Position numbers and translations under genes: made by a program. A stretch of 64,000 bases of DNA from Candidatus Woesearchaeota archaeon (GTDB lineage: Archaea; Nanobdellota; Nanobdellia; Woesearchaeales; GW2011-AR4). Positions 25,568 through 50,234 of this stretch are shown piece after piece (position 1 is the first letter of the stretch; every line of letters starts with the position of its first letter). The notes under the pieces were generated by a model. The model saw only the letters and a list, made by a program, of their open reading frames with translations. It made no database searches and had not been told where the DNA came from. The stretch is taken from NCBI GenBank assembly GCA_018303185.1, contig JAGVYR010000001.1, positions 8,461 to 72,460 of the forward strand, given 5' to 3'.

Positions 25568-26307
25568 GGTGCAAAATGGAAAATGACCCTATTATGAAAA
25601 AAGTTGTTGGAAGCATAGTTGAGAGCAATGAAAGGCTTATGAATTCAAGGCAGGAAGTGAGCAAATTCTCAAAAATTGTCCCTGCCCTTATGAAAAAAGG
25701 GCTTGACGAGCTCAATTTATCAATGTTCAGCCCGGAAATAAAGCAGGCAATCCTTACTGCCCTTGGAGAAGAGTACAGGAGAAAAGGCAACCTTAGCGAG
25801 GCTGTAAAGGCATTTGTGCTTGCAGGGGAAAGGTCGAAGCTTAATGATATTGCAGAGGAATACGAGAGGCTTGCCCAGTACGACAACTGCATCGAAGCCT
25901 ACAAGATGGCAGGAAACCATACAAAGCTCATGGAAATGGGCATGAGGTGCCTTAATGACGGCAAATTGGAGCATGCAATAAAGGCCTTCATCGCTGTGGG
26001 AGATGTCGGCAGGCTTATTGAGGTTGGCGACCAGTGCATGGCAAAATTCCGCTTTGACCACGCCCTCGAAATATTCGGCACAATGAAAGACAAAAGGAAG
26101 CTTACAGAGCTCGGCAACAGGTGCGTTGAGGAAAAGCAGTACAAATACGCGCTGCAGGCATTCTCAATAGCTGAGAACAGGGACGGCCTTAACATAATAG
26201 GAGACAGCTGCCTTAGGGAAGAGCACATTTCAATGGCCCTCGAAGCCTACCATCTTGCAAGCAATGAGATGATGGTTCAGTTCATAAGGGAAAACTTCCA
26301 GGATTAA
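25564..26307 (+). CDS. repeat protein (about 38-aa helical repeats), FtsZ-coupled
   Basis: ATGA overlap with the ftsZ stop. There are five or more repeats of the form A.KAF..AG....L.E.G..C. Confidence 0.55.
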   Translation: MRCKMENDPIMKKVVGSIVESNERLMNSRQEVSKFSKIVPALMKKGLDELNLSMFSPEIKQAILTALGEEYRRKGNLSEAVKAFVLAGERSKLNDIAEEYERLAQYDNCIEAYKMAGNHTKLMEMGMRCLNDGKLEHAIKAFIAVGDVGRLIEVGDQCMAKFRFDHALEIFGTMKDKRKLTELGNRCVEEKQYKYALQAFSIAENRDGLNIIGDSCLREEHISMALEAYHLASNEMMVQFIRENFQD

Positions 26308-28570: not shown

Positions 28571-29413
28571 CTAAAAAAACAGCGGCGTGACAAAAACCTC
28601 AAGAAGGGCTGCAAAGAACAGCACGAACACCGCAAGGAAAACCAAATCCAGCGAATCCGTAAGGATGTGCCTAAACTTCCCGCTTCCGAAATCATGCCTT
28701 GATATTGCAACCGATATTATCCCGCCTGCCAGCCCTGCCATGAAATAGGCGAGCATCTCAGGCACTCCATGAATGCTGTACCTCAATAATCCAAGTGAAA
28801 ATGAGGAAAAGTAGTTCAGCCCTATGGTTGAGTGCACGAAATGCCCTATAGCTGCTCCAATAACTGAGGCGTTCCATGTCAGTATGAATATAGCCCCAGT
28901 TCCATAGAAAAACGCGAAAATCAGGGCAAATATCATCACAACAAGGTTATTGAAGAAGATGCTGCCGAATATTCCCACAAGGCTCACTGCATTTCCCGTT
29001 ATGTCAATGCCCTGCACCCTTTCAATCTCCTTTATCTGCACGCTGAAGACATTGAAGGTCACATCCTCGGGCAGGAAAACATACCATATTGAAAATGAAA
29101 CCACAAAACCCATAAAGAGGAACATAAAGAATGAAAGGGCCTTTCCGTGCTCCTTTATCAAAACCGCTTCTTCCTCATAGACTAAATCCTTCTTTTCCTC
29201 TATCTTTATCGCTGTGTACATGAAGGGCGTTGCAGCAAGCACTGTAAGGAATATGGCGACAAGGCTGGCATGCTCGGCAAAGATATAGAGCCCGAGCATT
29301 ATCGCGAGGGAGCTGTAAATCAGCCCTATGAAGAACATCTCCCAGGGCTTTTTCCCTGCCTTGACGGGATTGACAAGAGACTCGAATACCATGCCTTTTC
29401 TTCGGAATAGCAA
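28571..29413 (-). CDS. SpoIIM/DUF95-family membrane protein
   Basis: Five or six TM helices in a DUF95-like arrangement. Confidence 0.55.
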   Translation of the reverse strand: MLFRRKGMVFESLVNPVKAGKKPWEMFFIGLIYSSLAIMLGLYIFAEHASLVAIFLTVLAATPFMYTAIKIEEKKDLVYEEEAVLIKEHGKALSFFMFLFMGFVVSFSIWYVFLPEDVTFNVFSVQIKEIERVQGIDITGNAVSLVGIFGSIFFNNLVVMIFALIFAFFYGTGAIFILTWNASVIGAAIGHFVHSTIGLNYFSSFSLGLLRYSIHGVPEMLAYFMAGLAGGIISVAISRHDFGSGKFRHILTDSLDLVFLAVFVLFFAALLEVFVTPLFF

Positions 29414-29886: not shown

Positions 29887-30672
29887 TCAATAAAACGCCT
29901 TGAATTCTCCGACTTCGAGCCCTGACTTCGTGAACTTCAGCAGGTTTGCCCCGGGCACAATCTCCGTTCCCCTGAGCTTCTTGACAGCAACCGTCCTGTT
30001 GACGTTCTTGGAAGTGTCATTGAGCTGCATCTGTATGACGCCATCGCAGGCAAACTCAGAAACGCCGTCCTTGGTCAGCAATTCCGTCCCCGGTGGAGAA
30101 TCTGTCAGGTATATCGAAGTCGCTCCAAGGTCGTTAACCCTGTTTATGAAGAGGTAAGTGAACTGGGAAACATCCTCAAAAGGCGCATAGCCTGCAACCT
30201 TCAAAACCTTGTCCCTCCCCAAAACTCCTGTAGGATCCGGCTGGTCCTTCAGCGGAAGGCTGAACATCCTTGCGTTTATATTCAATGCAGAAAGGGAATC
30301 CACCACAATCCTCTGCGCCTTTATTTTCTTCGCTGCCCTGGTTATTGTCTCCACAATATTGTAGCCTATATGGTCAATCGGAACCTTAAGGAACTCAAGC
30401 TTTCCTTCCTTCTGAAGCTTTTCAAGGTCCCAGCCGAATCCCTTTCCATAGGTTTTGAGCTTCTCAGGATCGTCTTCGACTGATACAAAAAGCCCGTTCT
30501 CATTGTTTTCAACAGCCCCTCTATACAAAAACTGAAGCGCAAATATTGTCTTGCCGGTTCCGGGCATGCCGCACACAAGGATGCTCTGCCCCCTTATGAA
30601 GCCCCCTCCAACAAGCCCGTCAAAGCCTTTGACCCCGCTTTTCACCCTTTCAATTCCGGAAACTTTTGCCAT
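29887..30672 (-). CDS. KaiC/RecA-like single-domain ATPase (paralog 1)
   Basis: GIERVKSGVKGFDGLVGGG...GMPGTGKT (Walker A), RIVVDSL (Walker B) and the C-terminal ...LEVGEFKAFY. Confidence 0.8.
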   Translation of the reverse strand: MAKVSGIERVKSGVKGFDGLVGGGFIRGQSILVCGMPGTGKTIFALQFLYRGAVENNENGLFVSVEDDPEKLKTYGKGFGWDLEKLQKEGKLEFLKVPIDHIGYNIVETITRAAKKIKAQRIVVDSLSALNINARMFSLPLKDQPDPTGVLGRDKVLKVAGYAPFEDVSQFTYLFINRVNDLGATSIYLTDSPPGTELLTKDGVSEFACDGVIQMQLNDTSKNVNRTVAVKKLRGTEIVPGANLLKFTKSGLEVGEFKAFY

Positions 30673-30721
30673 TTTGATTCTTTACTGAAGGTTATTATTA
30701 AAGTTTTTGATTTGATAAGTT

Positions 30722-30800
30722 GGCGTGCGGCGAGGCTGGGGTCGCGCCCTGCGGGCTGCCGAGCAGGTTTTCGCAGAAAACCGTCGCACCGCCATAAAGC
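30722..30800 (+). repeat. GC-rich structured element R4, copy 1
   Basis: gcgtgcggcgagg...ggggtcgcgccctgcggg...aggttttcgcagaaaacc...gtcgcaccgcc. It is homologous to 51181-51262 and 53741-53832. Confidence 0.5.
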
Positions 30801-30815
30801 TTGGCTCAAGCTCAC

Positions 30816-31514
30816 TTAAAGCACAATAGTATCAGGGAAAACAACCATTCCCTTTTCAGTGATTCTCATCGAGCATATCTTGGATTCGTGCCTCGTGCCC
30901 CTCATCTTGTACACTTCAATGGCCCTGAACCTCAGCCCTTTCGGCTCTCTCTGGTTGTAGAGCAGTATGATTGCATCCGCCATGAATCCCATGACAGTCG
31001 AATGGTGCTTGTCAGGGTCCTGATCTTCCTCTGCGACAACAACAGCAGTGCAGCCCCATTCCTCAATCATGTCAAACAGCGCCACAAGCATCCTTCTCTT
31101 CTCTGCTTCTGTGTCAAAAAGCGCCGTATATGCAGACAAGGAATCTATCACAATCCTCTTTGCCTCAACTTCCTGGATTGCCTTCTCTATTTCCTTGCTC
31201 CTTTCTTTTACTATTTTAGCTATCCTTTCCGGGCTGTACTTCAAAAAAATGAAGCGCCCCTGGCTCTCAAGCTTGTTCAGGTCCCAGCCGAATTTGGACA
31301 TGTGGTCATAAAACCTGTTTTTCCTCTCTTCAAAGGAGATATAGATACCGGTCTCACCGTCAGTTATGCCCTCAACAAGAAACTGCGTCGCGAATATGCT
31401 CTTTCCGCATCCGCCGCCGCCCATTACAAGCACTGCGCTGTTCTTTTCAAAGCCGCCCTCTGTGAGCTTGTCAAGCCCTTTGATGCCTGTTGAAATCCTT
31501 GCTTCGTTGGCCAT
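30816..31514 (-). CDS. KaiC/RecA-like single-domain ATPase (paralog 2, divergent)
   Basis: GIKGLDKLTEGG...GGGGCGKS Walker A, RIVIDSL Walker B. Confidence 0.8.
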   Translation of the reverse strand: MANEARISTGIKGLDKLTEGGFEKNSAVLVMGGGGCGKSIFATQFLVEGITDGETGIYISFEERKNRFYDHMSKFGWDLNKLESQGRFIFLKYSPERIAKIVKERSKEIEKAIQEVEAKRIVIDSLSAYTALFDTEAEKRRMLVALFDMIEEWGCTAVVVAEEDQDPDKHHSTVMGFMADAIILLYNQREPKGLRFRAIEVYKMRGTRHESKICSMRITEKGMVVFPDTIVL

Positions 31515-31532
31515 TTTATCTGTAGAAGGCCA

Positions 31533-32219
31533 TCAGTAGAAGGCCTTGTATTCCTCTATCTCAAGCCCTGCTTTCGATATTTTCAGTATGTTCTGGCCGG
31601 GCGTGATTTCTGTGCCCCTCATCTTCTTTATGGAAAGCGTCCTGCTCACAGTCTTGCTGACATCATTGAGCTGCAGCTGTATGACTCCGTCGCATACAAA
31701 CTCCGACACTCCGTCCTTGGTGAGCTGGTCGCCGCCGCCTGCTGAGGGGCTGTCCGTTATGAAAATGCTTGTCACCCCGAGCTCTTCAAGCACCCCTACA
31801 AAAGAGTACACGAACTGCGTTATGTCCTCGAAAGCCATGTAAATTGATGAAAGCGAATCTACGACAAGCCTTTTTGCGTTCATCCTGGTGACTTGCTCCC
31901 TGACTTTGTCCACAATGTCAAATTTCTTGTCAGTAGGCGCAACATGAAGGAACTGTAGTTTCCCTGCCTTTTCCAGCGCCTCAATGTCTTTCCACCCGAA
32001 TTCAGCCCCGTATTTCCTCAGCTTCCTTGGATGCTCTTCAATGCTCACATAAAGCCCGTTTTCATTGAACTTCTTTGCGCCCATATACAGGAACTGCAGC
32101 CCGAATATTGTCTTTCCGGTCCCGGGAGTGCCGCATATCAGTGTAGAGTGCCCTCTGGGAATGCCTCCTCCGACAAGTTTTTCAAGCCCCTTTATTCCGC
32201 TGTTTATCCTTTCCATCAA
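31533..32219 (-). CDS. KaiC/RecA-like single-domain ATPase (paralog 3)
   Basis: GTPGTGKT, RLVVDSL and the C-terminal ...LEIEEYKAFY. A close paralog of the 29887 gene. Confidence 0.8.
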   Translation of the reverse strand: MMERINSGIKGLEKLVGGGIPRGHSTLICGTPGTGKTIFGLQFLYMGAKKFNENGLYVSIEEHPRKLRKYGAEFGWKDIEALEKAGKLQFLHVAPTDKKFDIVDKVREQVTRMNAKRLVVDSLSSIYMAFEDITQFVYSFVGVLEELGVTSIFITDSPSAGGGDQLTKDGVSEFVCDGVIQLQLNDVSKTVSRTLSIKKMRGTEITPGQNILKISKAGLEIEEYKAFY

Positions 32220-32234: not shown

Positions 32235-32576
32235 TTAAGATGTCAGCTCATCAAGGAATTTTTCCAGTGACTTTTCCTCCTTCATTACAAACTTAAGGTA
32301 AGGTATTATGCCGATTATCAGCGCGACAAGCCCTACAAGCACCATGATGTTAAGCTGGTTTCTTGTGATAAGGTCGTTGAGCAATCCGACTATTGACACT
32401 ATAAGGAATGCAAAAAAAAGTATTATGCTCCCTCCGAGTATAAGCAGGGATTTTTCCCTCTCAATCTTCATCTTTTCTATCCTTAAAGAAATAATCTGCT
32501 TCTCTGCCTCGCTGAGCTTCCTCTTTGGAATGACGCGAAAGTCCTTTCTCTCAAGAAGCTCCTGATTTTCTTCCAT
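32235..32576 (-). CDS. small membrane protein (two TM helices)
   Basis: The ORF is in the track with a TTG start. I prefer the ATG at 32576 (MEENQ), which is preceded by a GAGGT Shine-Dalgarno and an upstream TATAAATA box. Confidence 0.5.
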   Translation of the reverse strand: MEENQELLERKDFRVIPKRKLSEAEKQIISLRIEKMKIEREKSLLILGGSIILFFAFLIVSIVGLLNDLITRNQLNIMVLVGLVALIIGIIPYLKFVMKEEKSLEKFLDELTS

Positions 32577-32631
32577 TAACAACCTCTTTTTAATTGATTT
32601 TTGAGTATAACGGATATTTATACTTTTGGTA

Positions 32632-34950
32632 TTACTTTTGGCTCATTGCTTTTAAAATTTCCTCTTTTGTCTTCCCTTTAGCCACTTCAGCCCCGATTTT
32701 AGCATCCCACTTCTTCATCCAGTCTGCAAAGTCATTCTTCTGAGCCGTGACGTGCTCCTTGAAAGTGTCGGGGTCCATGTTCTCTATTGCGTCATAAAGC
32801 TCCGTTGTATTCGTAACCATTACCCCGTTCTTGAGCTCCAGAGGGGGAACTTTAGCTGCAGCAGGGCCTCCTGCACTTCCTCCCTCTTTTTTCTTCTCTG
32901 ACTCAAACTTCTTCCTTGCTTCCTGGGCCCTTGCGAACTCTTCCCTGAGCTCTGATTCCGAGACAAGCTTTGTCCTTTTTTGCGGCGGCTCTTTGCCCAG
33001 CTTCTTCCACTGCTCTGCAACCCTTGGCTTCAGCCCGTCAAGGTAGATATCTACCATGTTGAAGCTTCCTGACTTTACCTTGTCAAGGGCCATCTTAAGC
33101 TCCAGCTTCAGGTCAAAGGCATCTATGTTTTCTTTCTCAAGCGCCTCTATTGAGTATTCAAGGTCATCAATCATGTCGTTGTATTTGTTGTAGTTGGAAA
33201 GCTCCTCATCGCTCAGCCTTGCGTGCTCGTGAAAAAGGGGCCTGAATGATATGAAATAAGGATTGCCCTTGTTATAGGCAGCGTTCTGAAGCATTCCTGT
33301 TCCTGTCGCGCTCTTCAGCAGGGACTGAAGCATGTAATCTCCGTATTTGGTCTTTATCCTGTCCAAATCCCCCTGGTCTCTCGTTCTCATCTGGACTTCT
33401 GTGTTTATGTTGGCTTTTGTCTCGCCGATAAAGTCCTTTAATACCTGGGAGATTAGCATTAAACCGACACCCCACTTCCTGAACTCCCTTGCTCCCCTTT
33501 CAATCTGGATGAATCCTGCGCCGGAGCCTCCGAACTTGGGCAGCAGCCTGTGAACCTCATCAAATATGACCATGAGCTTCAATACCGGGCTTTCGGGAAG
33601 GTTTGCGTGGAAAACTTCACGGATAGTATTAGCGACAAGTATGTCTGCATCTTCGGGGTCAAGCTTGTTTATTGTAAAGACGTTTATCTCTCCAGGCTTC
33701 ATGTATCTCTTGATGTCCACTCTTTCCCTAGCGTTGAGTATCTGCCTTACGTTCCCATTAAATGCTCTTGCGTCCCCTTTTTTAAGCCCGAACTTTGGAT
33801 AGAGGCCGAACATCTTCTTGTCAGTATTCTTTCTCAAAAAGCCTGACCACTGCGCCGTCGGGTCAAAAACTATGACTGACACGCCCTTAACAAGCGCCTC
33901 TTCGACAAGCACTTCTGCCGAGACTGTCTTTCCGCCTCCTGTTGAGCCTGCGATAAGCGTGTGGATTGTCAATTGGTCGAGGTCGAAATATGTTTTTTTT
34001 GTGGTTTCCGCAACCATGCCGAGATATGCCGTCCTTGGGCCCGACTTTGGCAGCAGTCCATAGTCTATCTTCATTGTATACCTCTTTTTCTTGGCTTTTT
34101 TCTTGAGATAGACTATGCCGCCTATCGAGCCTATGCCGAACACAATTCCCGCAAGTATGAGCCATCTTACAGGGATTATCCCCAGGAAAACATGGTCCCA
34201 GAAGGGCTCCACAACCTGGAAAGTCCTGCTGGCGCTTGTTTCCAAATCAAGATACTCTGCTGCAACATTGATTACGTAAGTTCCGGGCCTTATGAAGTCG
34301 GGCATGTCAAATTCCTTGACTATGTTGACAGAAGTTGCAAGCTCTACCACTTCTGACTCTTCAAAAAACGCCTTGTCGAACTTGTAGGTGGTGGTTCCAT
34401 CGTCAAGCCTGTCAATGCTGTATTTCATAGTGACATTGTACCTTTCATCAGAAAGCAGGTTCTGCACCCCAACTTTAAAATTGAAGATTTTTCCTATTGC
34501 GGCCTTTTCGGTAATCGGCTCTATCTCTATCAGAAGCGCTTCGACAGGGACAGCAGTGTTGCTTGTTACCGATATATTTATCGGAATTTGCTCATTTATG
34601 CTGCCGGAAATATCCAAAAAGCCGCTTCTGAATGAGGCATTCTCCCCGAATATGGTAAGCTTGACCTGTTCAGTGAGGCCCGGCTGCACATTCAGGCCTG
34701 TCCGGTCCATTGTTGCAATTCTTGATATGTCTCCTATGATGGTGAAGCTGACATCAATATTGCTCTCCCTGCTGTTCGTGATCTTTACTGGGATTTCCAG
34801 AAAGTCACCGCTCTTGACGCGCCTGTTGATTGACTCGGGGGATATGGAATATTGGTCTGACTGCGCCTGCGCAAAGCTGCTGAATGCTATTGCAAAAGCT
34901 AGCAAAATGCACGTCAGTACTGCAGCTTTAGTACGCTTATGGCTTCTCAT
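32632..34950 (-). CDS. membrane-anchored HerA/FtsK/VirB4-superfamily (DUF87-like) P-loop ATPase with an N-terminal extracellular domain
   Basis: Signal peptide, then a roughly 240-aa extracellular beta-rich region, a TM helix (WLILAGIVFGIGSIGGIVYL) and the cytoplasmic ATPase: Walker A GSTGGGKT, VIVFDPTAQW, Walker B MVIFDEVHRL. There is a long C-terminal coiled-coil tail. Confidence 0.7.
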   Translation of the reverse strand: MRSHKRTKAAVLTCILLAFAIAFSSFAQAQSDQYSISPESINRRVKSGDFLEIPVKITNSRESNIDVSFTIIGDISRIATMDRTGLNVQPGLTEQVKLTIFGENASFRSGFLDISGSINEQIPINISVTSNTAVPVEALLIEIEPITEKAAIGKIFNFKVGVQNLLSDERYNVTMKYSIDRLDDGTTTYKFDKAFFEESEVVELATSVNIVKEFDMPDFIRPGTYVINVAAEYLDLETSASRTFQVVEPFWDHVFLGIIPVRWLILAGIVFGIGSIGGIVYLKKKAKKKRYTMKIDYGLLPKSGPRTAYLGMVAETTKKTYFDLDQLTIHTLIAGSTGGGKTVSAEVLVEEALVKGVSVIVFDPTAQWSGFLRKNTDKKMFGLYPKFGLKKGDARAFNGNVRQILNARERVDIKRYMKPGEINVFTINKLDPEDADILVANTIREVFHANLPESPVLKLMVIFDEVHRLLPKFGGSGAGFIQIERGAREFRKWGVGLMLISQVLKDFIGETKANINTEVQMRTRDQGDLDRIKTKYGDYMLQSLLKSATGTGMLQNAAYNKGNPYFISFRPLFHEHARLSDEELSNYNKYNDMIDDLEYSIEALEKENIDAFDLKLELKMALDKVKSGSFNMVDIYLDGLKPRVAEQWKKLGKEPPQKRTKLVSESELREEFARAQEARKKFESEKKKEGGSAGGPAAAKVPPLELKNGVMVTNTTELYDAIENMDPDTFKEHVTAQKNDFADWMKKWDAKIGAEVAKGKTKEEILKAMSQK

Positions 34951-36475
34951 CTTCCGCCTTTTGCCCCACCAGTTTTATCGAATCCTCAATATAGTTGGTA
35001 ACAGCTTCAAGAACCCTGTATTGAGTAAGTATTCCTGCAACTTTATTCTTGTATATGACCGGAAGCCTTCTGTAATTCTTGTCGAGCATTATCTTGTTGG
35101 CCACAAACAGGCTTGTGCTTTGGTCGATTGTCTCTACGGGAGAGTTCATTATGTTCACGGCCTTGATTTTGGAAAATCCTTCCCTGCTTTTGTAAAATTC
35201 TCCCATAATATCCTTGATTGTGATAATGCCCATAAGCTTGCTGTCAGACTCGCTAAACTGCTGGTACACCAGTGCATATCCTTTCTTTGCCCTTGCCATC
35301 TTTCTGGCTATTTCCACAACAGGCTCATCCCTGCTCACTCTCAGTATGTCCCTGTCCATTATATTGCCGACATATGGCTGTCCGACAGGCTCCATCTGCT
35401 CTTTTGAAAACAGCTCGTTGATAAATTTAAGAAGGTCCGTCACTGTGACTATTCCGGCAAGCTTTTCTCCTTCAGCCAGGGGCAGCTTCCTTACTTTCTT
35501 TTTCTGGAGCGTTTGCATTGCCTTCAGCACAGTCCACTCATCAGAGCCGGCAACAAGGGGCGCGCTCATGATGTCCCTTGCTGAGGATTTTTCAGGATTA
35601 TTTTTTAGTATTGCGTTGGGAAGAAGATCGCTTTCTGTTATCATTCCAACAGGCTTCTTTTTGTCCATGACTACAAGGGAATTGAGGTTTTCCTCAAGCA
35701 TCTGTTTCATGACCTGAAGTGCGCGTGCATCTGCATCTGCTGTTTTGACATACCTGGACTTGATAAGGTAGAGTCTTGTTGTATCCAGTGCAACAGTGCT
35801 TTTCAGGAGCCCGTAGTTTGACAGGTTTGCCCTGTCTTTTCTCCTCCTATAAAGCCTGAAAGACAGGAAAGCTGCCAGGGCAGCAGCGAAGTAGAAATGC
35901 AGGTTTCTGGCAAAATGCCATGATATCTTTCTGGCATTGTCAAAAAATGTTCCCTGCCTTATGTCAATAAGGATGGTATTGATTATTGTCCCGCTTGACA
36001 GCTCGCTTTCAGGTCTCATGACCGTCAACGGCACTACTTCCACAGAGCCTCCCGGAGATGAAGGAACATCCGCAGAGGAAAGCCTTGGCTGCGTCATCAG
36101 CCTTATTGTGCTGTTTGGGGCTGCCCTTATCTGGCTCTGGGTAAAAAGGTAGTAGCCTTCAAGCATTGGGTTGCCGAATCGCATTGCCTCTTCTCTGGAG
36201 AGTGTTTTTGTGCGTGCTGCCCTTATTATCCCAAGGCTGTCTGTCCATTTTGCAGTAACCATTTCTCCGGAAACAGGATGGCCTCTTTGATCCACTATCC
36301 TCCCGTAAAGTCCTGTGGGGGGATTGCCGCTTGCACTGCATTCTCCGGTGCAGTTTTCAAGCACTATCTCGCTGCAGTCATCATTCTGGCAGGTAAGCCT
36401 TTGCGCACTTGTGCCTGCGGCTATCAGAGTGAATAAAACTATCGCAGACACTATAAAATTCCTGATTCTGTTCAC
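34937..36475 (-). CDS. membrane protein with extracellular domain and four cytoplasmic CBS domains
   Basis: Signal peptide, a Cys-rich extracellular part, a TM helix (FYFAAALAAFLSF) and then tandem CBS pairs (repeated hydrophobic-xDIM/DLL patterns). It overlaps the downstream ATPase gene by 14 nt. Confidence 0.65.
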   Translation of the reverse strand: MNRIRNFIVSAIVLFTLIAAGTSAQRLTCQNDDCSEIVLENCTGECSASGNPPTGLYGRIVDQRGHPVSGEMVTAKWTDSLGIIRAARTKTLSREEAMRFGNPMLEGYYLFTQSQIRAAPNSTIRLMTQPRLSSADVPSSPGGSVEVVPLTVMRPESELSSGTIINTILIDIRQGTFFDNARKISWHFARNLHFYFAAALAAFLSFRLYRRRKDRANLSNYGLLKSTVALDTTRLYLIKSRYVKTADADARALQVMKQMLEENLNSLVVMDKKKPVGMITESDLLPNAILKNNPEKSSARDIMSAPLVAGSDEWTVLKAMQTLQKKKVRKLPLAEGEKLAGIVTVTDLLKFINELFSKEQMEPVGQPYVGNIMDRDILRVSRDEPVVEIARKMARAKKGYALVYQQFSESDSKLMGIITIKDIMGEFYKSREGFSKIKAVNIMNSPVETIDQSTSLFVANKIMLDKNYRRLPVIYKNKVAGILTQYRVLEAVTNYIEDSIKLVGQKAEDEKP

Positions 36476-36482: not shown

Positions 36483-39400
36483 TTAGTGCAAATTGCTTAT
36501 GTTGCTTATTTTACTATGCAGCTCCATGCATTTCTTTGACACTTCAGCCTTATGCTCCCTCGGGATAATGCTGTATAGTGATTGTATCTTCTTGTATATT
36601 GCGAATGACGCCTTTTTGTCGTTTGCCATTATGCTGCTTTCCGCTTCATCAGCCAGCTTATGCACATAAAGCATGTTGAGCCTGTGCGCCATGTCAGTCA
36701 CTGCCTGCTTTACTCTTTCTCTTTTCTCTTTCTCAAGCGCCCTGAACTTTTCTGTTATCTGCCTGTATTTCAGGGATGCGTTTTCATAATTCATCGCGGC
36801 AGCATCCGCATTCGCCTCTTCAATTATTTTTTTAAGCTCCTTCAGCTCCTTGCCGCCAAGAAGATGCGCAAATTTCTCGATGCCGCCCATTGAATACACG
36901 AAATAAAACCCTGCCAGCAGCACGATTGCAGCTATCTCGAGTATCAGCCTTATGTCGGCAGCATTTATGAAGCTTGTCGCCGCGCTTTCAAGTATCGAGA
37001 GCCCTATAAAAATCCCTTTGCTCTCAATCTTAAGGCTTTTGTCAAGAAGCATTGACTTTATGCTTTCAGAGTCATCAAGGCTTATTGATTTTTTAATAAG
37101 GTATGAGTATTCTTCAATCTTGTTCAGGTCTATCCGGACTATCGGGTCATATTGCACGACTTCATGGTCAAAAAGCAGCTCTGTCTCATTCAGGTCCTTT
37201 GCGATTTCTTTAGGAATCACCTCGTAGAAGACATAGTCCGATATGTTTGAATTCACCTTGACTATCTTATGGATCAGGGTATAAGTTCTCCTGTCTCCTG
37301 AGATATACTCAAAGTTCACAATCTTTGCCTTTGTTGTGACAGTGATTGCCGATTGCAAATTGAGGTTATGGCTTATAAGCTGCTCTTTTTCTCTCCTGGA
37401 GAACTTAAGGTTTGTCTGGTTTAGCAGCACACTGACCCCTTCCGCAATTTCTGGCCTGCCGGGATAGTTTACAAATTCCGTCGACTCGGCAACCTCAATC
37501 ACTCTTGGAGTTGTTTTTCTTATTTCCTCAACTCTATCCAGTATTTTCTGCGTTTCCTTTTCAAGCTCACTTTCATTCAGCTTTCTCCACTTGAGGCTGT
37601 GCAGGTCTCTATTTGCCCTGTCAAGGCTTGTAATGCTTCTCTCGAGCATCTCCTTGAGCCTGATCGCGTCAGCAGCTTCCTTCTCCTTTCCTGTAAGGCT
37701 TCCTGAATCCTCGATGGCAGACCTTATCTGCTGGACAAGGCTTTCTGTATCCCGGTCGCTCTGGTCAAGGTCGACAGAAAGCTCGTTTATTACCGCTTCT
37801 TCATTTACTACAAGGCTGTAAGTCTGGCTCGCGTTCAGGTTTCCGCTCCTGTCAATGCAGTCTACCTTCCATCTGTAGTCGCCATTGGGCATGTTAGCAA
37901 CCTTAAAATTGTTTGATGAGCCTGTAAGCACAGAGCTGTTCGATGCCTTGACCGAGGAGAATGGGAGGCTGTAGGGTTCATAATAAAGCCTGCATGTCAT
38001 GTAGCCGCCATCGGCTGCGGCATAAGTGAAGGTTACATTTCTCGAGCTGATTATTGTGTCATTCTGCGGGCTTATGAGATAGGCGATGGGGGCTTTTTCA
38101 TCCTTAAGAGTGAGATTGAAGCTCACTTCCTGATTATTGGCATTTATTGATATGTCCTTGGATAGCTTATTGTATCCTCTCTTTGCGATTTCTATATCAT
38201 GGCTGCCCTTATACACTGTAAATGATGCCTGCCCGCTGCTGCTCGTGTTCTTTTCTTCGTCATCCACCGATACTATGGCATTCTGTATGGCTGTTCCGGT
38301 GCCATTCTGCCTGACTGTCACGGTAAAGTTGAACATCTTTCTGACGCTTATAGTTTCTATGTCTGTCTGGTTCCAGAAAGAGTCTTTCACAGTCAAATTT
38401 ACATTATAAGTCCCGTTGAACTGGAACAGCTTTGTGGGATTTGATTCTGTGCTGTCTATCGTTCCGTCATTCTCAAAATCCCATTTGTACGTTACAGTTC
38501 CAGTATTTCCCGACACTGTTGCCGAAAAAGTGACTGCTTTCCCTTCATCTATTGAAGTTCTGTTGGCATTTATTGTAACGCTTAAAGGATTGCTTTGCGG
38601 CGCAAGCACTTCAAACTGCCTTGTTATTGTCTCCGTAACATTAATGTAATGCATGTCCGCTGTTATAGTATAATTTCCGGCATTGCTTGTGTTTTCTATC
38701 TTCCTTATCTCCGATATGGGAAATCCTGAAAACAAAGGCTGGAATAAATGCCTGTACGTGACAGCATTATTTTTCCTTACGGTCATGTTTACAGTGGAAT
38801 TTACTCTGGCTATGACTGTCGCATAAACACTGTCAGTCAGGTTGTATTGAAGCTGGCCTGTTGAGGCATTGAAAGGCACACACGAGCTGCAGCTTCCTCC
38901 GCAGTCTATTCCCGTCTCCTGCCCGTTCTGCCTTGCATCCGAGCAGCTGCCTATCTCTGTAAAGTTGAATTTGTAGAATTCCTGCCTCTCGTTTCCGTTG
39001 AAATCCCTTGCTTTTATAGTAAGGTTGTTTTTTCCTTCCATTACCGGTAATGCAATTTCTTTTTTTCTTCCTGTCCCGGCATCTTCAAATGCTGTAAATC
39101 CGTTATTGTTTGCATTATAGCTTATGTTCCCGTATTCGCTCAGAGTTATTTTTACAGGCAGTGAGAAAGTTATCTCTGACTGCTCGCTGTTGTTGGTTAT
39201 ATTCAGCGATATTGAAGGCGCTGCCGAATCCGCAACAGTAAAAGTATGCTCAAGCCTTCCGCCGCTGTAATTTATCCCGATTGTGTGCTGCCCGTTGGCA
39301 AGGACTCCATGCGGCAACGAGCCGTTCAGTAAAGATAAAAATGATGTATTTTCTCCCAAAGCAATTTTTTCCCCCGCATCCAGCGTATAATTCGCGTCAA

Positions 39401-40013
39401 TCGTCTCATTGGCCGAGAAATTGAGATAAATATTTTCCCCTGATGAAAGATTGCTGCTGTTATCCGGGCTTGTTATCGTTATTATCGGATTTCCCGATGA
39501 CATTATTGAAAAGCCCGAGCCTCCAAAGCTCCCTTGGAATTGTGCGCTCAGGTTCTTCCACTCGGAATAATAAGTATTGGTGTAAGGGTTCTCTCCCAGG
39601 CTGTATTCAACATAGACTGTCTGGGCAAGCACCCTGTTATTTTCAGTTGCCCCATAAGTCCCATATGACAGGTATAAAGGCTCGTTCCAGTCCGGCCTTG
39701 TCGGCACCATGGACATGAAGTTGCAGCACGCCTCGCTTCCGTAGCAGGCAAAAGTCGAGTCTCCTGTATTTTCTGACTGGACATTCCATCTCGTGCAGAG
39801 ATTTGATTCGTTCAGTCCCAGCTCAAACAGCGAATTTTCAACAGTGAAGTCAATTGCCCCGGTATCCGATTCAATCCCGTTATTGTCAAAATCGTATGCG
39901 GGATTGCTTCCGTATTGAAGGTTGATTAAAACGCGCTCTGTAGTCTGCGCCAAAGCGGCTGTGCTTATTATAAGAATAAACAGCAGCAGCATTGTTTTGA
40001 GGAAGGAGCTCAT
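36483..40013 (-). CDS. giant surface (glyco)protein with PKD domain, C-terminal TM anchor and cytoplasmic coiled-coil tail
   Basis: 1176 aa with a signal peptide and dozens of N-x-S/T sequons. The PKD signature is TVTYKWDFENDGTIDSTESNPTKLFQFNGTYNVNLTVKD. The TM helix lies near residue 1010, followed by about 150 aa of cytoplasmic coiled coil. Confidence 0.75.
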   Translation of the reverse strand: MSSFLKTMLLLFILIISTAALAQTTERVLINLQYGSNPAYDFDNNGIESDTGAIDFTVENSLFELGLNESNLCTRWNVQSENTGDSTFACYGSEACCNFMSMVPTRPDWNEPLYLSYGTYGATENNRVLAQTVYVEYSLGENPYTNTYYSEWKNLSAQFQGSFGGSGFSIMSSGNPIITITSPDNSSNLSSGENIYLNFSANETIDANYTLDAGEKIALGENTSFLSLLNGSLPHGVLANGQHTIGINYSGGRLEHTFTVADSAAPSISLNITNNSEQSEITFSLPVKITLSEYGNISYNANNNGFTAFEDAGTGRKKEIALPVMEGKNNLTIKARDFNGNERQEFYKFNFTEIGSCSDARQNGQETGIDCGGSCSSCVPFNASTGQLQYNLTDSVYATVIARVNSTVNMTVRKNNAVTYRHLFQPLFSGFPISEIRKIENTSNAGNYTITADMHYINVTETITRQFEVLAPQSNPLSVTINANRTSIDEGKAVTFSATVSGNTGTVTYKWDFENDGTIDSTESNPTKLFQFNGTYNVNLTVKDSFWNQTDIETISVRKMFNFTVTVRQNGTGTAIQNAIVSVDDEEKNTSSSGQASFTVYKGSHDIEIAKRGYNKLSKDISINANNQEVSFNLTLKDEKAPIAYLISPQNDTIISSRNVTFTYAAADGGYMTCRLYYEPYSLPFSSVKASNSSVLTGSSNNFKVANMPNGDYRWKVDCIDRSGNLNASQTYSLVVNEEAVINELSVDLDQSDRDTESLVQQIRSAIEDSGSLTGKEKEAADAIRLKEMLERSITSLDRANRDLHSLKWRKLNESELEKETQKILDRVEEIRKTTPRVIEVAESTEFVNYPGRPEIAEGVSVLLNQTNLKFSRREKEQLISHNLNLQSAITVTTKAKIVNFEYISGDRRTYTLIHKIVKVNSNISDYVFYEVIPKEIAKDLNETELLFDHEVVQYDPIVRIDLNKIEEYSYLIKKSISLDDSESIKSMLLDKSLKIESKGIFIGLSILESAATSFINAADIRLILEIAAIVLLAGFYFVYSMGGIEKFAHLLGGKELKELKKIIEEANADAAAMNYENASLKYRQITEKFRALEKEKRERVKQAVTDMAHRLNMLYVHKLADEAESSIMANDKKASFAIYKKIQSLYSIIPREHKAEVSKKCMELHSKISNISNLH

Positions 40014-40294
40014 TTCAGCATCCCTCCCTTCATCAGCTGCTCTTTTATCGCTTCCAGCTCTTTGTTGATCTGCTCCCTTACTTTTTCCTCAGAAGTTTTC
40101 CTTGTCTCTTTCTCAATATCCTGCCTTAATTTGTTTAACTGGAATAATTCCGGGCTTTGCGCCTTTGCCCATTCCTTCCTTACAATGCTTCTCAATTGCT
40201 CGCTTAAATCAAGAAAATGCTGCTCCTTTGCAAGCTGCTTCAATTCATCCAGAAGGGATTTCGGCATCCTGATGCTGACTAAAACATCAGTCAT
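40010..40294 (-). CDS. ribbon-helix-helix (RHH/CopG-Arc) family DNA-binding protein
   Basis: VSIRMPKSLLDELKQLAKEQ is an RHH beta-strand plus helix. The probable start is MTDV, an internal Met of the 40315 ORF. It overlaps the giant gene by 4 nt. Confidence 0.5.
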   Translation of the reverse strand: MTDVLVSIRMPKSLLDELKQLAKEQHFLDLSEQLRSIVRKEWAKAQSPELFQLNKLRQDIEKETRKTSEEKVREQINKELEAIKEQLMKGGMLK

Positions 40295-40436
40295 CCTTTC
40301 CCTGCCTCCTGACATAGTTTCTTGAGAATTCCCTGATTGCTTCGCTTCTTGACTTGTAGATGCCTTTCTTCACCAAAGAATCCAGCCACTCAACTATTTC
40401 CTTCGGCAGCCGCACATTGAAAATCTCTACATCCAT
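40287..40436 (-). CDS. small RHH/CopG-like DNA-binding protein, 49 aa
   Basis: I translated it by hand: MDVEIFNVRLPKEIVEWLDSLVKKGIYKSRSEAIREFSRNYVRRQGKDD. It is not in the ORF track. Its stop overlaps the next gene start (gATGActga). Confidence 0.45.
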   Translation of the reverse strand: MDVEIFNVRLPKEIVEWLDSLVKKGIYKSRSEAIREFSRNYVRRQGKDD

Positions 40437-48290: not shown

Positions 48291-49127
48291 TTAGCTGAGT
48301 TCAACATAAAAGTAATAGGCTGTAGAGCTTGAAAAGCCGATGCCCGCATTCTCCGGAACAATCATCTGGAAGTCATACAGGTTTGAGTTGAATCCCTCGA
48401 TGTTTGCCTCAATCGGAGTCACATACACGACATTCCCGTTAGTGGTGTTTGTACCGTCATACATTATTATCTGGGTAAAGTTGGCATCATCGCTGTCTGA
48501 AAATGACTGCTCATTGTCATTCTGCCATGTCTGGAGCGTGAAGCACTGATTTTTTCCTACGACAATAGAGCCTATTGTGACTGATGAATGATTTGTCCTG
48601 TCAAAAGTTGCAGTTATGTTGTCATCCTGGTTTACATGCCCTAAGGCTGCATTCTCCCTTTCCTCTATCGTCCTGTTTGAAAGAGATGCCCTCAAAGCCC
48701 CTTCTGCAGCCCACGTGCAGTTTATCTGCGCCCATGTGACTGTTCCTGATGCCCTGGTAGAGTAAACTTCGCCTGCAATGCTCGTAAGGCTCCACTGGTA
48801 GAAAGTGTTGGTATTTGCGTCATCCAAGGCGAATGTGCCTGTCACGTTTCCGACATAAGCCTTCCATCTTGTGTTCTGCTGCCTTATGTCCATGGTCATT
48901 ATGAATATGTATCCGCCCGGGCTGCTTCCGTTGACTGTTGAGTTGACCTTGGTAGCTACCGTTGCATTTGGTGTGAGGTTTGCGGTAATATCAACAACTG
49001 GGCCGACAGGAAGTGAGTTTACGAAATGAGAAATGATGGCAAGCATTGCTACTATCGCCAGCAGGAATGCCAGCGTGTTAATTCCTCTTGCAGCTGATTT
49101 CAGCATCTGTGTGCGCATTTCAATCAC
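48291..49127 (-). CDS. secreted sequon-rich protein, FYVEL-terminus paralog family (member 1)
   Basis: Signal peptide, RWKAYVGNVTGTF and the C-terminus YYFYVELS. The start is uncertain and may be an internal Met, because of the 4-nt overlap with the upstream gene. Confidence 0.6.
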   Translation of the reverse strand: MIEMRTQMLKSAARGINTLAFLLAIVAMLAIISHFVNSLPVGPVVDITANLTPNATVATKVNSTVNGSSPGGYIFIMTMDIRQQNTRWKAYVGNVTGTFALDDANTNTFYQWSLTSIAGEVYSTRASGTVTWAQINCTWAAEGALRASLSNRTIEERENAALGHVNQDDNITATFDRTNHSSVTIGSIVVGKNQCFTLQTWQNDNEQSFSDSDDANFTQIIMYDGTNTTNGNVVYVTPIEANIEGFNSNLYDFQMIVPENAGIGFSSSTAYYFYVELS

Positions 49128-50230: not shown

Positions 50231-50234
50231 TTTC

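What the first reader, a model, noticed from the sequence alone, without database searches (positions are those of the whole stretch)
32632..34950. HerA/FtsK-superfamily ATPase fused to a cleavable signal peptide and roughly 240-aa extracellular domain
Walker A GSTGGGKT, VIVFDPTAQW and Walker B MVIFDEVHRL identify a DUF87/HerA-like translocase core. The N-terminal third is predicted to be outside the cell (AQA signal cleavage site, beta-rich, then one TM). Most HerA/FtsK/VirB4 enzymes are cytoplasmic or N-terminally multi-TM. A single-pass ATPase with a large ectodomain is an atypical architecture. A 100-aa charged coiled-coil C-terminus follows the ATPase.
Basis: seen in the sequence. Interest (0 to 1): 0.6.

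Follow-up and report, generated by a model that had tools for sequence, protein, structure and literature searches.

The report
Surface-anchored HerA-like ATPase of DPANN archaea
This gene encodes a membrane protein with a small domain outside the cell and an ATP-driven ring-motor domain inside. It is the stripped-down form of the giant "SPEARE" surface proteins that tiny symbiotic archaea are thought to use on their hosts, so the architecture is real and unusual but already described, and its function is untested.

Summary
ORF 32632-34950 (minus strand, 772 aa) reads, from N to C terminus:
- a signal peptide;
- two Ig-like beta-sandwiches;
- one transmembrane helix followed by KKKAKKKR;
- a HerA/DUF87-type P-loop ATPase with intact Walker A and B motifs and a conserved arginine aligned to HerA's reported finger;
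- a helical region and a small C-terminal domain.

This order is kept in all full-length relatives examined, almost all labelled Woesearchaeota or Nanoarchaeota.

It is not a new architecture. The same core (tandem Ig, TM, ATPase, helical hairpin) ends giant proteins of up to 6873 aa, including nanohaloarchaeal SPEARE-type proteins (ATPase core about 53% identical). Hamm et al. 2019 described SPEARE and noted similar sequences in Woesearchaeota. A 2023 paper re-read the cytoplasmic part as an ATPase.

What I add:
- The window protein is the minimal core form.
- By sequence it is HerA-like, not VirB4/TraG, and it lacks the HAS-barrel.
- It sits in a conserved operon: RHH, RHH-like, a 1176-aa PKD surface protein, a CBS membrane protein, the ATPase, a small membrane protein and three KaiC-like ATPases.

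The most likely role is a ring motor under the membrane in a host-contact or translocation complex. That role is inferred, not shown.

The parts
32632..34950 (-). The gene of the finding: a 772-aa type-I membrane HerA-like ATPase, the minimal 'SPEARE-core' protein
   Evidence: ORF and translation; Pfam DUF87/HerA_C; AF2 model at pLDDT 86; homologs.
34864..34950 (-). Signal peptide, aa 1-29: a basic n-region, a hydrophobic core, then AQA|Q
   Evidence: Sequence; hydropathy; 57 of 62 homologs have a (-3,-1) small-residue site. Cleavage is not shown.
34195..34863 (-). Ectodomain, aa 30-252: two Ig/FnIII-like beta-sandwiches (34-129 and 139-247). This is the conserved membrane-proximal module of the whole family
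   Evidence: AF2 model. Foldseek hits to RbmA, ASH/SPD-2 and WxLIP tandem beta-sandwiches. An HMM of this module hits 127 of 169 representatives, lying just upstream of the ATPase in every one inspected, nanohaloarchaeal giants included. Sequon enrichment.
34102..34188 (-). Transmembrane helix, aa 255-283, followed by the conserved basic linker KKAKKKRY...LLPKSGPR (aa 284-306, window 34033-34101)
   Evidence: The linker has 76% mean column conservation.
33226..34032 (-). Cytoplasmic FtsK-HerA-superfamily ATPase core, aa 307-575. Walker A is GSTGGGKT (33925-33948). Walker B is LMVIFDEV (33553-33576). The putative arginine finger R491 is at 33478-33480. The SQ sensor is at aa 501-502
   Evidence: All of these residues are invariant in 62 homologs. 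R491 aligns with R381 of Sulfolobus HerA. Hits to HerA structures.
32881..33225 (-). Helical region, aa 576-690. The first hairpin (~65 aa) is conserved family-wide
   Evidence: AF2 helices at 581-689. The HMM of this region hits 162 of 169 representatives.
32635..32853 (-). Small C-terminal alpha/beta domain, aa 700-772, DUF5752-like. It is repeated in long paralogs and in an accessory protein
   Evidence: AF2 model. Internal repeat in P0092 and a DUF5752 hit in P0092. Present in only 21 of 169 representatives.
34937..36475 (-). Upstream gene, whose end overlaps the ATPase start by 14 nt: a 512-aa protein with a signal peptide, a Cys-containing ectodomain, a weak TM, and four cytoplasmic CBS domains
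   Evidence: Translation; Pfam CBS at 3.5e-43, four stretches; overlap. Present in the closest loci L001, L006, L002 and L020.
36483..40013 (-). A 1176-aa surface protein. It has a signal peptide, about 8 beta-sandwich domains (PKD, CarboxypepD_reg), an extracellular helical bundle (749-834), an alpha/beta domain (836-991), a TM (about 1003-1041) and a cytoplasmic TPR-like helical tail
   Evidence: A homolog lies directly upstream of the ATPase gene in about two thirds of the 84 related loci (homologs somewhere in 72). The conserved part is aa 450-1176.
40010..40315 (-). A 101-aa RHH-like protein with a helical tail. Its stop overlaps the start of the surface-protein gene by 4 nt
   Evidence: Translation; weak RHH_1 hit, E 0.003; homologs in 61 of 84 related loci, in the same position in those inspected.
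40287..40436 (-). A 49-aa CopG-type ribbon-helix-helix protein, the first gene of the cluster. It overlaps the next gene by 29 nt
   Evidence: Read from the sequence; Pfam RHH_1 at 7.5e-8. Equivalent RHH_1 genes occur in L004 and L005.
32235..32582 (-). A 115-aa protein with a cytoplasmic helix plus 2 TM segments, 49 nt downstream of the ATPase
   Evidence: Conserved in L001, L006, L007, L008, L009 and L013.
29887..32219 (-). Three consecutive single-domain KaiC-like ATPase genes: 31533-32219, 30816-31514 and 29887-30672
   Evidence: Pfam KaiC (PF06745) at 1e-49 to 1e-61; NCBIfam KaiC_arch families, with weaker ArlH hits. The same trio follows the ATPase in L001, L007, L008, L009 and L013.
28571..29413 (-). 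A SpoIIM/DUF95-family polytopic membrane protein, 473 nt downstream. It is a possible but uncertain member of the cluster
   Evidence: Pfam SpoIIM at 1e-14. It is found next to the ATPase in L002, L020 and L060, and within a few kb in L076 and L078.

Best explanation
What it is (shown). The gene encodes the minimal form of the SPEARE-type membrane ATPase family of DPANN archaea. From N to C terminus it has a Sec-type signal peptide, a conserved pair of Ig-like domains outside the membrane, one TM helix, a 20-residue basic linker, a catalytically intact FtsK-HerA-superfamily P-loop domain that is closest to HerA, and then a helical tail. In other family members the same core carries ectodomains of up to about 6400 aa.

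How it most likely works (inferred).
- Like its relatives, the ATPase probably forms a ring. The residue aligned to HerA's reported arginine finger is invariant.
- The TM helix enters the ATPase where HerA carries its HAS-barrel, and the linker is short. The ring should therefore lie flat under the membrane, with its central axis running through the bundle of its own TM helices and the external Ig collar. This is the geometry of a type IV coupling protein.
- Together with the 1176-aa PKD surface protein encoded just upstream, and with the translationally coupled CBS membrane protein, it would form a cell-surface complex.
- That complex would use ATP to move or pull a polymer (DNA or protein) across, or at, the symbiont's membrane during contact with another cell.
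- The CBS domains and the three KaiC-like ATPases would act as nucleotide- or phosphorylation-dependent regulators.

The substrate and the direction of transport are unknown.
For: Architecture and conservation:
- Domain layout and topology.
- 347 representative clusters match the ATPase core at E<1e-30, and 118 of 127 have a TM 20-110 aa upstream of Walker A. Ectodomains run from about 220 to 6446 aa.
- The Ig module, TM, ATPase and helical hairpin are conserved even in nanohaloarchaeal giants.

Link to SPEARE:
- P0311 is labelled Ca. Nanosalina and P0296 is labelled Nanohaloarchaeota.
- The window protein is 39% identical over aa 36-641 to the 717-aa P0312.
- P0312, P0314 and P0309 match the published SPEARE lengths to within one residue, and P0312's ATPase lies just after the published TM position.
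- Contig LSSJ01000002 of 'Euryarchaeota archaeon SM23-78' (L071) comes from the same MAG as KYK27349.1, which is in the SPEARE tree of Hamm 2019.

Active, HerA-like ATPase:
- Walker A, Walker B, R491 and the SQ sensor are invariant.
- HerA is the top hit by sequence profile and by fold.
- HerA residues 121-176, which I place just after the HAS-barrel, align to query 307-362, directly after the TM linker.

Operon:
- Start/stop overlaps of 29, 4 and 14 nt, and short gaps elsewhere.
- RHH-like homologs occur in 61 and surface-protein homologs in 72 of 84 loci, in the order RHH-like, surface protein, ATPase in about two thirds of loci.
- The CBS, 115-aa and KaiC x3 genes recur in the closest loci.

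Precedents:
- Published proposals give SPEARE a role in host adhesion and transfer.
- Established knowledge (not tested here): HerA, FtsK, VirD4/TrwB and EssC are ring translocases, and the KaiC-like ArlH regulates the archaellum ATPase ArlI.
- The bare ATPase core is also close in fold to the packaging ATPase of the membrane-containing virus PH1 (TM-score 0.68 normalised to the target).
Against: - No experiment exists for any member beyond proteomic detection of one SPEARE protein.
- No polytopic channel protein is conserved across the family. Six or twelve single TM helices make a doubtful conduit for DNA or folded protein.
- No relaxase, pilin, VirB6/8 or nuclease partner is present.
- Oligomeric state and ring orientation were not modelled. 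Only monomer predictions were available.
- The giant forms lack the RHH and surface-protein partners, so the operon partners are not universal.
- The KaiC and CBS association is limited to a subclade.
- The arginine-finger identity of Sulfolobus HerA R381, the extent of its HAS-barrel, and the ArlH-ArlI precedent are recalled from the literature, not verified here.
Confidence: 0.45

Rival explanations
1. Anchor or remodelling motor without translocation. The ATPase ring clusters adhesin ectodomains, applies tension to them or recycles them. It couples them to a cytoplasmic coiled-coil/TPR scaffold, like an attachment organelle, and nothing passes through the membrane.
For: - The ectodomains are adhesin-like and highly variable (220 to 6446 aa) on a constant core.
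- Cytoplasmic partners are rich in coiled coil and TPR-like motifs. The tail motif of the surface protein is shared with ~150-aa proteins and with long-paralog C-termini.
- A 300-500 aa coiled-coil protein downstream is conserved as far as the halophile-type locus.
- No conserved channel-forming polytopic protein exists.
Against: - The characterised members of the FtsK-HerA superfamily known to me thread a polymer or act as scaffolds for effectors (established knowledge). None is known as a pure adhesin tensioner.
- The short, highly conserved TM-to-ATPase linker and the always-retained Ig collar suggest a coaxial conduit-like assembly.
Confidence: 0.25
2. A true type IV secretion component. 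The cytoplasmic domain is a VirB4/TraG-family ATPase and the protein is part of a T4SS 'straw' that injects effectors, as proposed for nanohaloarchaeal giants in 2023.
For: - The published proposal.
- The T4CP-like topology.
- Weak P-loop matches to TrwB_AAD_bind, AAA_10, TraD, TraC and IcmO.
- The T4CP TcpA is among the Foldseek hits.
Against: - All T4SS-family models fall below their cut-offs: AAA_10 at 19.9 against 27.5, TrwB_AAD_bind at 19.8 against 20.5, and the NCBIfam TraD, TraC and VirB4 models far below.
- No PF03135 VirB4 N-domain hit was reported.
- HerA outranks the T4SS ATPases by both profile and fold.
- No other T4SS gene was identified among the window genes I scanned.
Confidence: 0.1
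3. Antiviral defence. This would be a HerA-type defence ATPase, as in Sir2-HerA or DUF4297-HerA systems, here tethered to the surface as a sensor.
For: PADLOC hits to mad8 (1.9e-16, covering aa 311-537) and to defence HerA models. PDB hits include defence HerA complexes.
Against: - No effector (Sir2, nuclease, DUF4297) lies in the operon.
- The family is near-ubiquitous and syntenic in a chromosomal context, which does not look like a variable defence island.
- The ectodomains are adhesin-like.
Confidence: 0.07
4. Cytoplasmic DNA degradation. The intracellular region is a type III restriction-enzyme-like domain that degrades imported DNA, as originally annotated for SPEARE in 2019.
For: The original annotation. 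A weak Pfam ResIII match at E 0.0012.
Against: - ResIII scores 19.2 bits against a cutoff of 22.5.
- No nuclease or methylase domain was detected by Pfam or NCBIfam. In the AF2 model every segment is accounted for by the ATPase core, helices or the small C-terminal domain.
- The 2023 re-analysis also found no endonuclease.
Confidence: 0.03

Closest known systems
SPEARE proteins of Nanohaloarchaeota (Hamm et al. 2019, PMC6642349; re-interpreted in PMC10266531)
   Same: - The same conserved core: membrane-proximal Ig module, TM, cytoplasmic P-loop ATPase and helical hairpin.
- ATPase core about 53% identical; 39% identity over 600 aa to the 717-aa form.
- The same predicted topology.
- The 2019 paper already lists relatives from Woesearchaeota and SM23-78.
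   Different: - The window protein has only the ~220-aa core ectodomain. It has no laminin-G, protease-like or long Ig arrays.
- It carries an extra DUF5752-like C-terminal domain.
- It sits in an operon with RHH proteins, a separate PKD surface protein, a CBS membrane protein and three KaiC-like ATPases. None of these appears at the one halophile-type giant locus examined, L085.
HerA DNA translocase/helicase (e.g. Sulfolobus HerA, PDB 4d2i)
   Same: - Best sequence and fold match for the ATPase.
- Passes the Pfam DUF87 and HerA_C cut-offs.
- Shares the Walker motifs, the AREGRKFG-type arginine-finger motif and the NT-x-I-x-x-R motif.
   Different: - No HAS-barrel and no helical-bundle insert.
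- Membrane-anchored with an ectodomain.
- No NurA/Mre11/Rad50 partners.
- Far below the NCBIfam HerA equivalog scores (36 against 800).
Type IV coupling proteins (TrwB/VirD4/TraD/TcpA)
   Same: - Topology of N-in, TM, outside loop, TM, then a cytoplasmic FtsK-HerA-superfamily NBD on a short linker.
- Ring expected to lie flat on the membrane.
- TcpA and IcmO appear among the weak hits.
   Different: - The outside 'loop' is 220-6400 aa of folded domains.
- No all-alpha domain.
- The family models are not reached.
- No relaxosome or T4SS genes.
EssC/EccC of type VII secretion
   Same: A membrane-anchored FtsK-like ATPase that works with single-pass partners to export proteins. This is an analogy from established knowledge.
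   Different: EssC has cytoplasmic FHA domains, two TMs and three tandem ATPase domains. The window protein has a single ATPase domain and no FHA match in Pfam.
Packaging ATPases of membrane-containing viruses (e.g. Haloarcula hispanica virus PH1 ATPase; PRD1 P9 class)
   Same: The same bare FtsK-HerA core without accessory domains: TM-score 0.68 normalised to the target, rmsd 5.5 A over 265 columns. From established knowledge, these enzymes pump DNA through a membrane-associated portal.
   Different: They are soluble viral proteins with no TM or ectodomain. The window shows no viral gene context.
ArlH-ArlI pair of the archaellum (KaiC-like regulator of a membrane-associated hexameric ATPase)
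   Same: Single-domain KaiC-like ATPases encoded next to a membrane-associated ring ATPase. The window's KaiC-like proteins hit ArlH models weakly, at about 1e-13.
   Different: There are three paralogous KaiC-like genes, and they match generic KaiC_arch families better. The ATPase belongs to a different superfamily. No interaction has been shown.

Membership tests
SPEARE family (Hamm et al. 2019) | Conserved intracellular region homologous to that of nanohaloarchaeal SPEARE proteins | tested here: met
   - The ATPase core is 51-54% identical (E about 1e-92) to the acidic giants P0309, P0311 and P0314. P0311 is labelled Ca. Nanosalina.
- 39% identity over aa 36-641 to the 717-aa P0312.
- The MAG that carries L071 (SM23-78) contributes a protein to the SPEARE tree in Table S3.
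SPEARE family (Hamm et al. 2019) | N-terminal part outside the cell, a TM anchor just before the conserved region, and the C-terminal region in the cytoplasm | tested here: met
   Hydropathy, positive-inside rule, sequon bias and the AF2 model. This is prediction only.
SPEARE family (Hamm et al. 2019) | Very long protein whose ectodomain has at least one laminin-G domain and multiple adhesion domains (and protease-like regions) | tested here: not met
   The protein is 772 aa. The ectodomain is two Ig-like sandwiches only, with no LamG or protease hit. The paper itself counts 655- and 717-aa versions as SPEARE.
HerA helicase (DNA end-resection HerA) | DUF87/HerA central P-loop domain with Walker A and B motifs and an arginine finger | tested here: met
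   PF01935 scores 42.8 against 23.2, and PF05872 scores 29.6 against 22. The motifs are invariant. Aligns to HerA 4d2i.
HerA helicase (DNA end-resection HerA) | N-terminal HAS-barrel domain | tested here: not met
   In the AF2 model the TM helix (261-288) is followed after about 20 residues by the ATPase core, and there is no cytoplasmic beta-barrel.
HerA helicase (DNA end-resection HerA) | Reaches the curated equivalog score; operon with NurA/Mre11/Rad50 | tested here: not met
   NF040937 scores 36 against 800, and NF040819 scores 29.7 against 970. No such neighbours are present.
T4SS ATPases (VirB4; VirD4/TraG/TrwB coupling proteins) | Match to the family models (PF03135, PF12846, PF10412, PF02534, TIGR00929 and others) at their cut-offs | tested here: not met
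   AAA_10 scores 19.9 against 27.5, and TrwB_AAD_bind scores 19.8 against 20.5. No PF03135 hit was reported. The NCBIfam TraD, TraC and VirB4 models score 20-30 bits against cut-offs of 366-650.
T4SS ATPases (VirB4; VirD4/TraG/TrwB coupling proteins) | N-terminal membrane anchor followed by a cytoplasmic NBD (coupling-protein topology) | tested here: met
   This is a resemblance in topology only.
T4SS ATPases (VirB4; VirD4/TraG/TrwB coupling proteins) | Encoded with other T4SS or relaxosome genes | tested here: not met
   None was identified among the window genes I scanned, nor among the Pfam annotations of related loci.
FtsK/SpoIIIE | PF01580 at its cut-off; a multi-TM N-terminal domain; a gamma (KOPS-binding) domain | tested here: not met
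   PF01580 scores 18.4 against 24, in the P-loop region only. There is one TM after the signal peptide. No winged-helix gamma domain appears in the model.
Ring (hexameric) translocase | Forms a closed ring with a central channel | not testable with these tools
   Only monomer prediction was available. Conservation of the residue aligned to HerA's reported arginine finger is indirect support.

The most novel reading that the evidence does not exclude
The conserved core (Ig collar, TM, HerA-like ring) defines a DPANN-wide class of envelope machine that has not been recognised as such. It would be distinct from T4SS, T7SS and type IV filament systems. The ring ATPase would be covalently tied to the surface adhesin. 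It would import host DNA or nucleotides, or export effectors, at the cell-cell contact site. In the minimal Woesearchaeota operon it would be regulated by a hetero-oligomer of three KaiC-like ATPases and a CBS nucleotide sensor.
Probability: 0.25. Interest if true: 0.85.

Novelty: new member of a known kind. Interest (0 to 1): 0.5.

Why it matters
DPANN archaea depend on host cells for most building blocks, and how material crosses between the cells is an open question. SPEARE-type proteins are the main genomic candidates, but they are huge, have been annotated in conflicting ways (restriction enzyme, protease, VirB4/TraG), and remain untested.

This window provides the family's smallest natural version: 772 aa, with a high-confidence model. 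It contains only the parts conserved from Woesearchaeota to Nanohaloarchaeota, and its companion genes are separately encoded (surface protein, CBS sensor, KaiC-like ATPases).

That makes the question tractable. The core can be expressed, tested for ring formation, ATPase activity and DNA or protein binding, and modelled as a complex. The work also corrects the family assignment to HerA-like and shows which ectodomain module belongs to the machine rather than to the adhesin.

Tried and rejected
- tRNA and Rfam scans of the window found nothing.
- The promoter and terminator scan uses bacterial consensus sequences and gave counts no different from shuffled sequence.
- PHROGs gave only generic P-loop hits, so there is no sign of a virus.
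- Literature searches combining DPANN or Woesearchaeota with HerA, DUF87, FtsK-HerA or KaiC found nothing relevant. The 2014 dark-matter paper does not cover this family. Iyer et al. 2004 is not held. The link to SPEARE came only after the representative search showed giant homologs.
- I considered that the separate 1176-aa surface protein is simply the split-off ectodomain of the giant fused forms. I rejected the simple version of this. BLAST shows only an N-terminal domain match to one giant and a C-terminal tail-motif match to one long paralog, and the surface protein has its own TM and cytoplasmic tail.
- Foldseek on the surface-protein model returned only generic multi-Ig chains.
- A long paralog and the coiled-coil partner were looked for in the window and not found.
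- Pfam on the accessory proteins gave nothing above noise.


Full report
**Observation.**
- All quoted motifs are present. GSTGGGKT is at aa 335-342, VIVFDPTAQW at 359-368 and MVIFDEVHRL at 460-469.
- The N-terminus is MRSHKRTKAAVLTCILLAFAIAFSSFAQA|Q.
- A hydropathy scan finds two hydrophobic segments, aa 6-30 and 252-283. The second is followed by KKKAKKKR.

**Topology.** SignalP and DeepTMHMM were not available, so I used four independent lines.
- Positive-inside rule. Over 62 homologs, the 15 residues after the TM hold 7.7 K/R on average, against 1.9 before it. 57 of 62 have a small-residue (-3,-1) site after the N-terminal hydrophobic stretch.
- N-glycosylation sequons. They number 273 in aa 30-250 and 48 in aa 289-772 over the 62 homologs. 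Composition predicts 127 in each region, so the density differs 12-fold.
- The AlphaFold2 model (mean pLDDT 86). It shows a signal helix, two beta-sandwiches (34-129 and 139-247), a long TM helix (261-288), an alpha/beta ATPase (307-569), helices (581-689) and a small domain (704-770).
- Published predictions. TMHMM and SignalP results for a homologous 717-aa protein give residues 1-322 outside, TM at 323-345 and 346-717 inside.

The ectodomain is about 223 aa. The C-terminal 200 aa is a helical region plus a small DUF5752-like domain, not merely a coiled coil.

**ATPase class.**
- Among Pfam families only DUF87 (42.8 bits, cutoff 23.2) and HerA_C (29.6 bits, cutoff 22) pass their gathering scores. 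AAA_10, TrwB_AAD_bind, FtsK_SpoIIIE and ResIII are sub-threshold matches.
- NCBIfam gives weak partial hits to HerA, CedD, TraD and TraC, all far below their cut-offs.
- A profile of 62 homologs finds only HerA-type chains in the PDB (4d2i at E 1.2e-8, then 9x1l, 9c1m, 8xau and others), plus IcmO weakly.
- Foldseek ranks Sulfolobus HerA first, with the coupling protein TcpA lower.
- Walker A, Walker B (D464, E465), the SQ sensor and R491 are invariant. R491 aligns with R381 of Sulfolobus HerA. I recall R381 as the trans arginine finger, which I did not verify here.
- There is no HAS-barrel. The ATPase core starts about 20 residues after the TM, at the position where HerA's barrel joins its core.
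- Against viral models, the bare core resembles the packaging ATPase of the membrane-containing virus PH1, with TM-score 0.68 normalised to the target.

**Family.** The protein is not an oddity.
- 679 homologs had E<=1e-3 among the candidates scored. The 120 listed split into a ~770-aa group (46-70% identical, full length) and a ~1300-aa group with extra CarboxypepD_reg, TPR or DUF5752 parts. The names given are Woesearchaeota, Nanoarchaeota or Nanoarchaeia.
- All full-length proteins among them keep the order of N-terminal hydrophobic segment, ectodomain, TM, then Walker A.
- A scan of one genome per species found 528 encoded relatives. The kept loci are mostly labelled Woesearchaeota, Nanoarchaeota, Nanoarchaeia or Pacearchaeota, and the rest carry other or generic labels.
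- An exhaustive search with the ATPase core (aa 289-580) found 347 representative clusters at E<1e-30. The same core (50-78% identical) sits at the C-terminus of proteins of 3000-6873 aa.
- In 118 of 127 representatives a TM lies 20-110 aa upstream of Walker A. Ectodomain length runs from about 220 to 6446 aa.
- The sequences of four giants show adhesin-like, sequon-rich ectodomains that end in the same membrane-proximal module.
- HMMs cut from my alignment show what is conserved across the family. The tandem-Ig module lies just upstream of the ATPase in every hit inspected (127 of 169 representatives hit). The ATPase hits 169 of 169. The first helical hairpin hits 162 of 169. The DUF5752-like end hits only 21 of 169.

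The window protein is therefore essentially the family's conserved core, with little else attached.

**Link to known work.** The most acidic giants are nanohaloarchaeal.
- P0311 (4079 aa) is labelled Candidatus Nanosalina and P0296 is labelled Nanohaloarchaeota.
- Hamm et al. 2019 (PMC6642349) described "SPEARE" proteins in Nanohaloarchaeota. They are very long, mostly extracytoplasmic, and anchored by a TM near the C-terminus.
- That paper calls the intracellular portion the most conserved region. It annotates it as restriction-enzyme-like and notes "similar sequences" in Woesearchaeota, Aenigmarchaeota, Micrarchaeota and Altiarchaeales.
- Its listed sizes (4,057, 3,315, 717 and 655 aa) match P0314 (4058), P0309 (3314) and P0312 (717) to within one residue.
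- Its Table S3 includes a protein from 'Euryarchaeota archaeon SM23-78', the MAG that also carries my locus L071.
- A 2023 paper (PMC10266531) re-read the cytoplasmic part as a VirB4/TraG-like ATPase followed by a coiled coil, and proposed a T4SS-like "straw".
- The window protein aligns with P0312 over aa 36-641 at 39% identity, E 4e-145. The alignment spans the ecto module, TM, ATPase and hairpin.
- The weak ResIII hit (19.2 bits against a cutoff of 22.5) probably accounts for the original "restriction enzyme" label.
- I found no paper on the Woesearchaeota members or on the operon described next.

**Genomic context.** The gene lies in a tight minus-strand cluster. In order of transcription:
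- a 49-aa CopG RHH (40287-40436);
- a 101-aa RHH-like protein (40010-40315);
- the 1176-aa surface protein (36483-40013);
- a 512-aa protein with signal peptide, ectodomain, TM and four CBS domains (34937-36475);
- the ATPase;
- a 115-aa two-TM protein (32235-32582);
- three KaiC-like ATPases (29887-32219);
- after 473 nt, a SpoIIM-family membrane protein.

Neighbouring genes overlap by 29, 4 and 14 nt or are separated by 7-49 nt.

Homologs of the RHH-like protein occur in 61 of 84 related loci and homologs of the surface protein in 72. In about two thirds of the loci the order is RHH-like, surface protein, ATPase. The CBS protein, the 115-aa protein and the KaiC trio recur only in the loci closest to the window (L001, L006-L009, L013). 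Short and long ATPase paralogs are often adjacent (L004, L005, L021, L022, L025) or a few genes apart (L001, L007).

The surface-protein model (pLDDT 79) shows about eight beta-sandwiches, an extracellular helical bundle, an alpha/beta domain, a TM and a cytoplasmic TPR-like tail. Its C-terminal two thirds are the conserved part. The tail motif recurs in ~150-aa proteins and at the C-termini of long paralogs.

Giant fused forms lack the RHH and surface-protein partners. They keep a 300-500 aa protein just downstream. For the halophile-type locus this protein is a homolog of the Woesearchaeota coiled-coil partner.

The rest of the window is ordinary chromosome: FtsZ, MsrB, helicases and glycogen genes.

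**Mechanism.**

Shown:
- an intact P-loop ATPase of the HerA branch, tied by a short conserved linker to a TM helix and an external pair of Ig-like domains;
- strong purifying conservation of this core while the distal ectodomain varies 30-fold in size;
- translational coupling to other single-pass proteins with ectodomains.

Inferred:
- The ATPase forms a ring, as its relatives do.
- The TM replaces the HAS-barrel, so the ring lies flat under the membrane, coaxial with its TM bundle and Ig collar, as in type IV coupling proteins.
- The complex works at the cell surface, probably at contacts with a host, to move or pull a polymer.
- The CBS domains and KaiC-like ATPases act as regulators, by analogy with ArlH-ArlI.

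Against this:
- No conserved polytopic channel protein exists.
- No T4SS or relaxosome genes are present.
- No oligomer model could be made.
- No experiment exists for any member.

The chief rival is a motor that clusters or remodels adhesins on a coiled-coil scaffold without translocating anything. Defence and restriction-type readings are poorly supported.

**Verdict.** The architecture is unusual within the FtsK-HerA superfamily, but it belongs to a family already in the literature. I therefore rate it a new member of a known kind.

New here:
- the definition of the conserved core;
- the recognition of the Ig collar as part of that core;
- the HerA rather than VirB4/TraG assignment;
- the breadth of the family in Woesearchaeota;
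- the conserved operon with its RHH, surface-protein, CBS and KaiC partners.

Interest is moderate. The function of the family is an open and relevant question for DPANN symbiosis, and this minimal member would be a practical entry point.

Noticed in passing
window 46159-47709 (-): A 516-aa protein with PocR, GAF and GGDEF (diguanylate cyclase, 1.5e-43) domains in what looks like a Woesearchaeota chromosome. From my own knowledge, c-di-GMP enzymes are rare in archaea, so this may be a bacterial acquisition.
   Followed up: no
window 44164-45948 (+), 52668-53732 (+), 53863-55719 (+): Glycogen synthase, a GH15 glucoamylase-like protein and an amylo-1,6-glucosidase (GDE_C). Glycogen synthase and GDE_C also flank the homologous ATPase loci L001 and L005, so this chromosomal neighbourhood is conserved.
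   Followed up: partly
window 36483-36680 (-) (aa 1107-1170 of the 1176-aa protein); L001 19857-20309; L002 18578-19039; L003 8994-10004: A ~45-aa TPR-like cytoplasmic tail motif (A..IY..I..LY..LP...K..V....C.E) is shared by the surface protein's tail, by ~150-aa proteins downstream of long paralogs, by a 336-aa protein, and by the C-termini of some long ATPase paralogs. It may be a common docking module.
   Followed up: partly
L001 20333-21478; L085 22211-23710; L086 22596-23489; L087 26805-27707: A 300-500 aa protein sits directly downstream of long and giant family members. The L085 (halophile-type) copy is a coiled-coil homolog of the Woesearchaeota partner (E about 1e-19). The L086 and L087 copies were seen only by position and size. 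The window has none.
   Followed up: partly
window 32632-34950 (-); protein P0048: One public ENA gene call for this exact gene starts at an internal Met and gives a 426-aa product lacking the signal peptide, ectodomain, TM and Walker A. The family is probably under-recognised in automated annotations.
   Followed up: no
loci L006, L008, L011, L018, L029 and others: Many MAGs that carry this family are titled 'uncultured Methanosarcinales archaeon' (the binchicken assemblies). Their proteins are 50-66% identical to Woesearchaeota/Nanoarchaeota ones, so the label looks like a placeholder or an error.
   Followed up: no
window 24518-26307 (+): FtsZ (349 aa) is followed, with a 4-nt overlap, by a TPR protein (247 aa). 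They lie about 2.3 kb from the SpoIIM-family gene on the opposite strand. No link to the ATPase cluster was seen in related loci.
   Followed up: partly
window 16980-19154 (-), 6543-8030 (-): A CopA-like heavy-metal P-type ATPase (HMA + E1-E2 ATPase), and a DsbD_2 membrane protein fused to HMA and cupredoxin-like domains. These look like a metal-handling pair.
   Followed up: no
window 1-4000: GC content falls to 0.32-0.37, against about 0.44 for the rest of the window.
   Followed up: no
window 49124-50308 (-): A DHH/DHHA1 phosphoesterase (394 aa). It lies about 1.4 kb from the GGDEF gene and could be a RecJ/GAN-like or a cyclic-dinucleotide-related enzyme.
   Followed up: no
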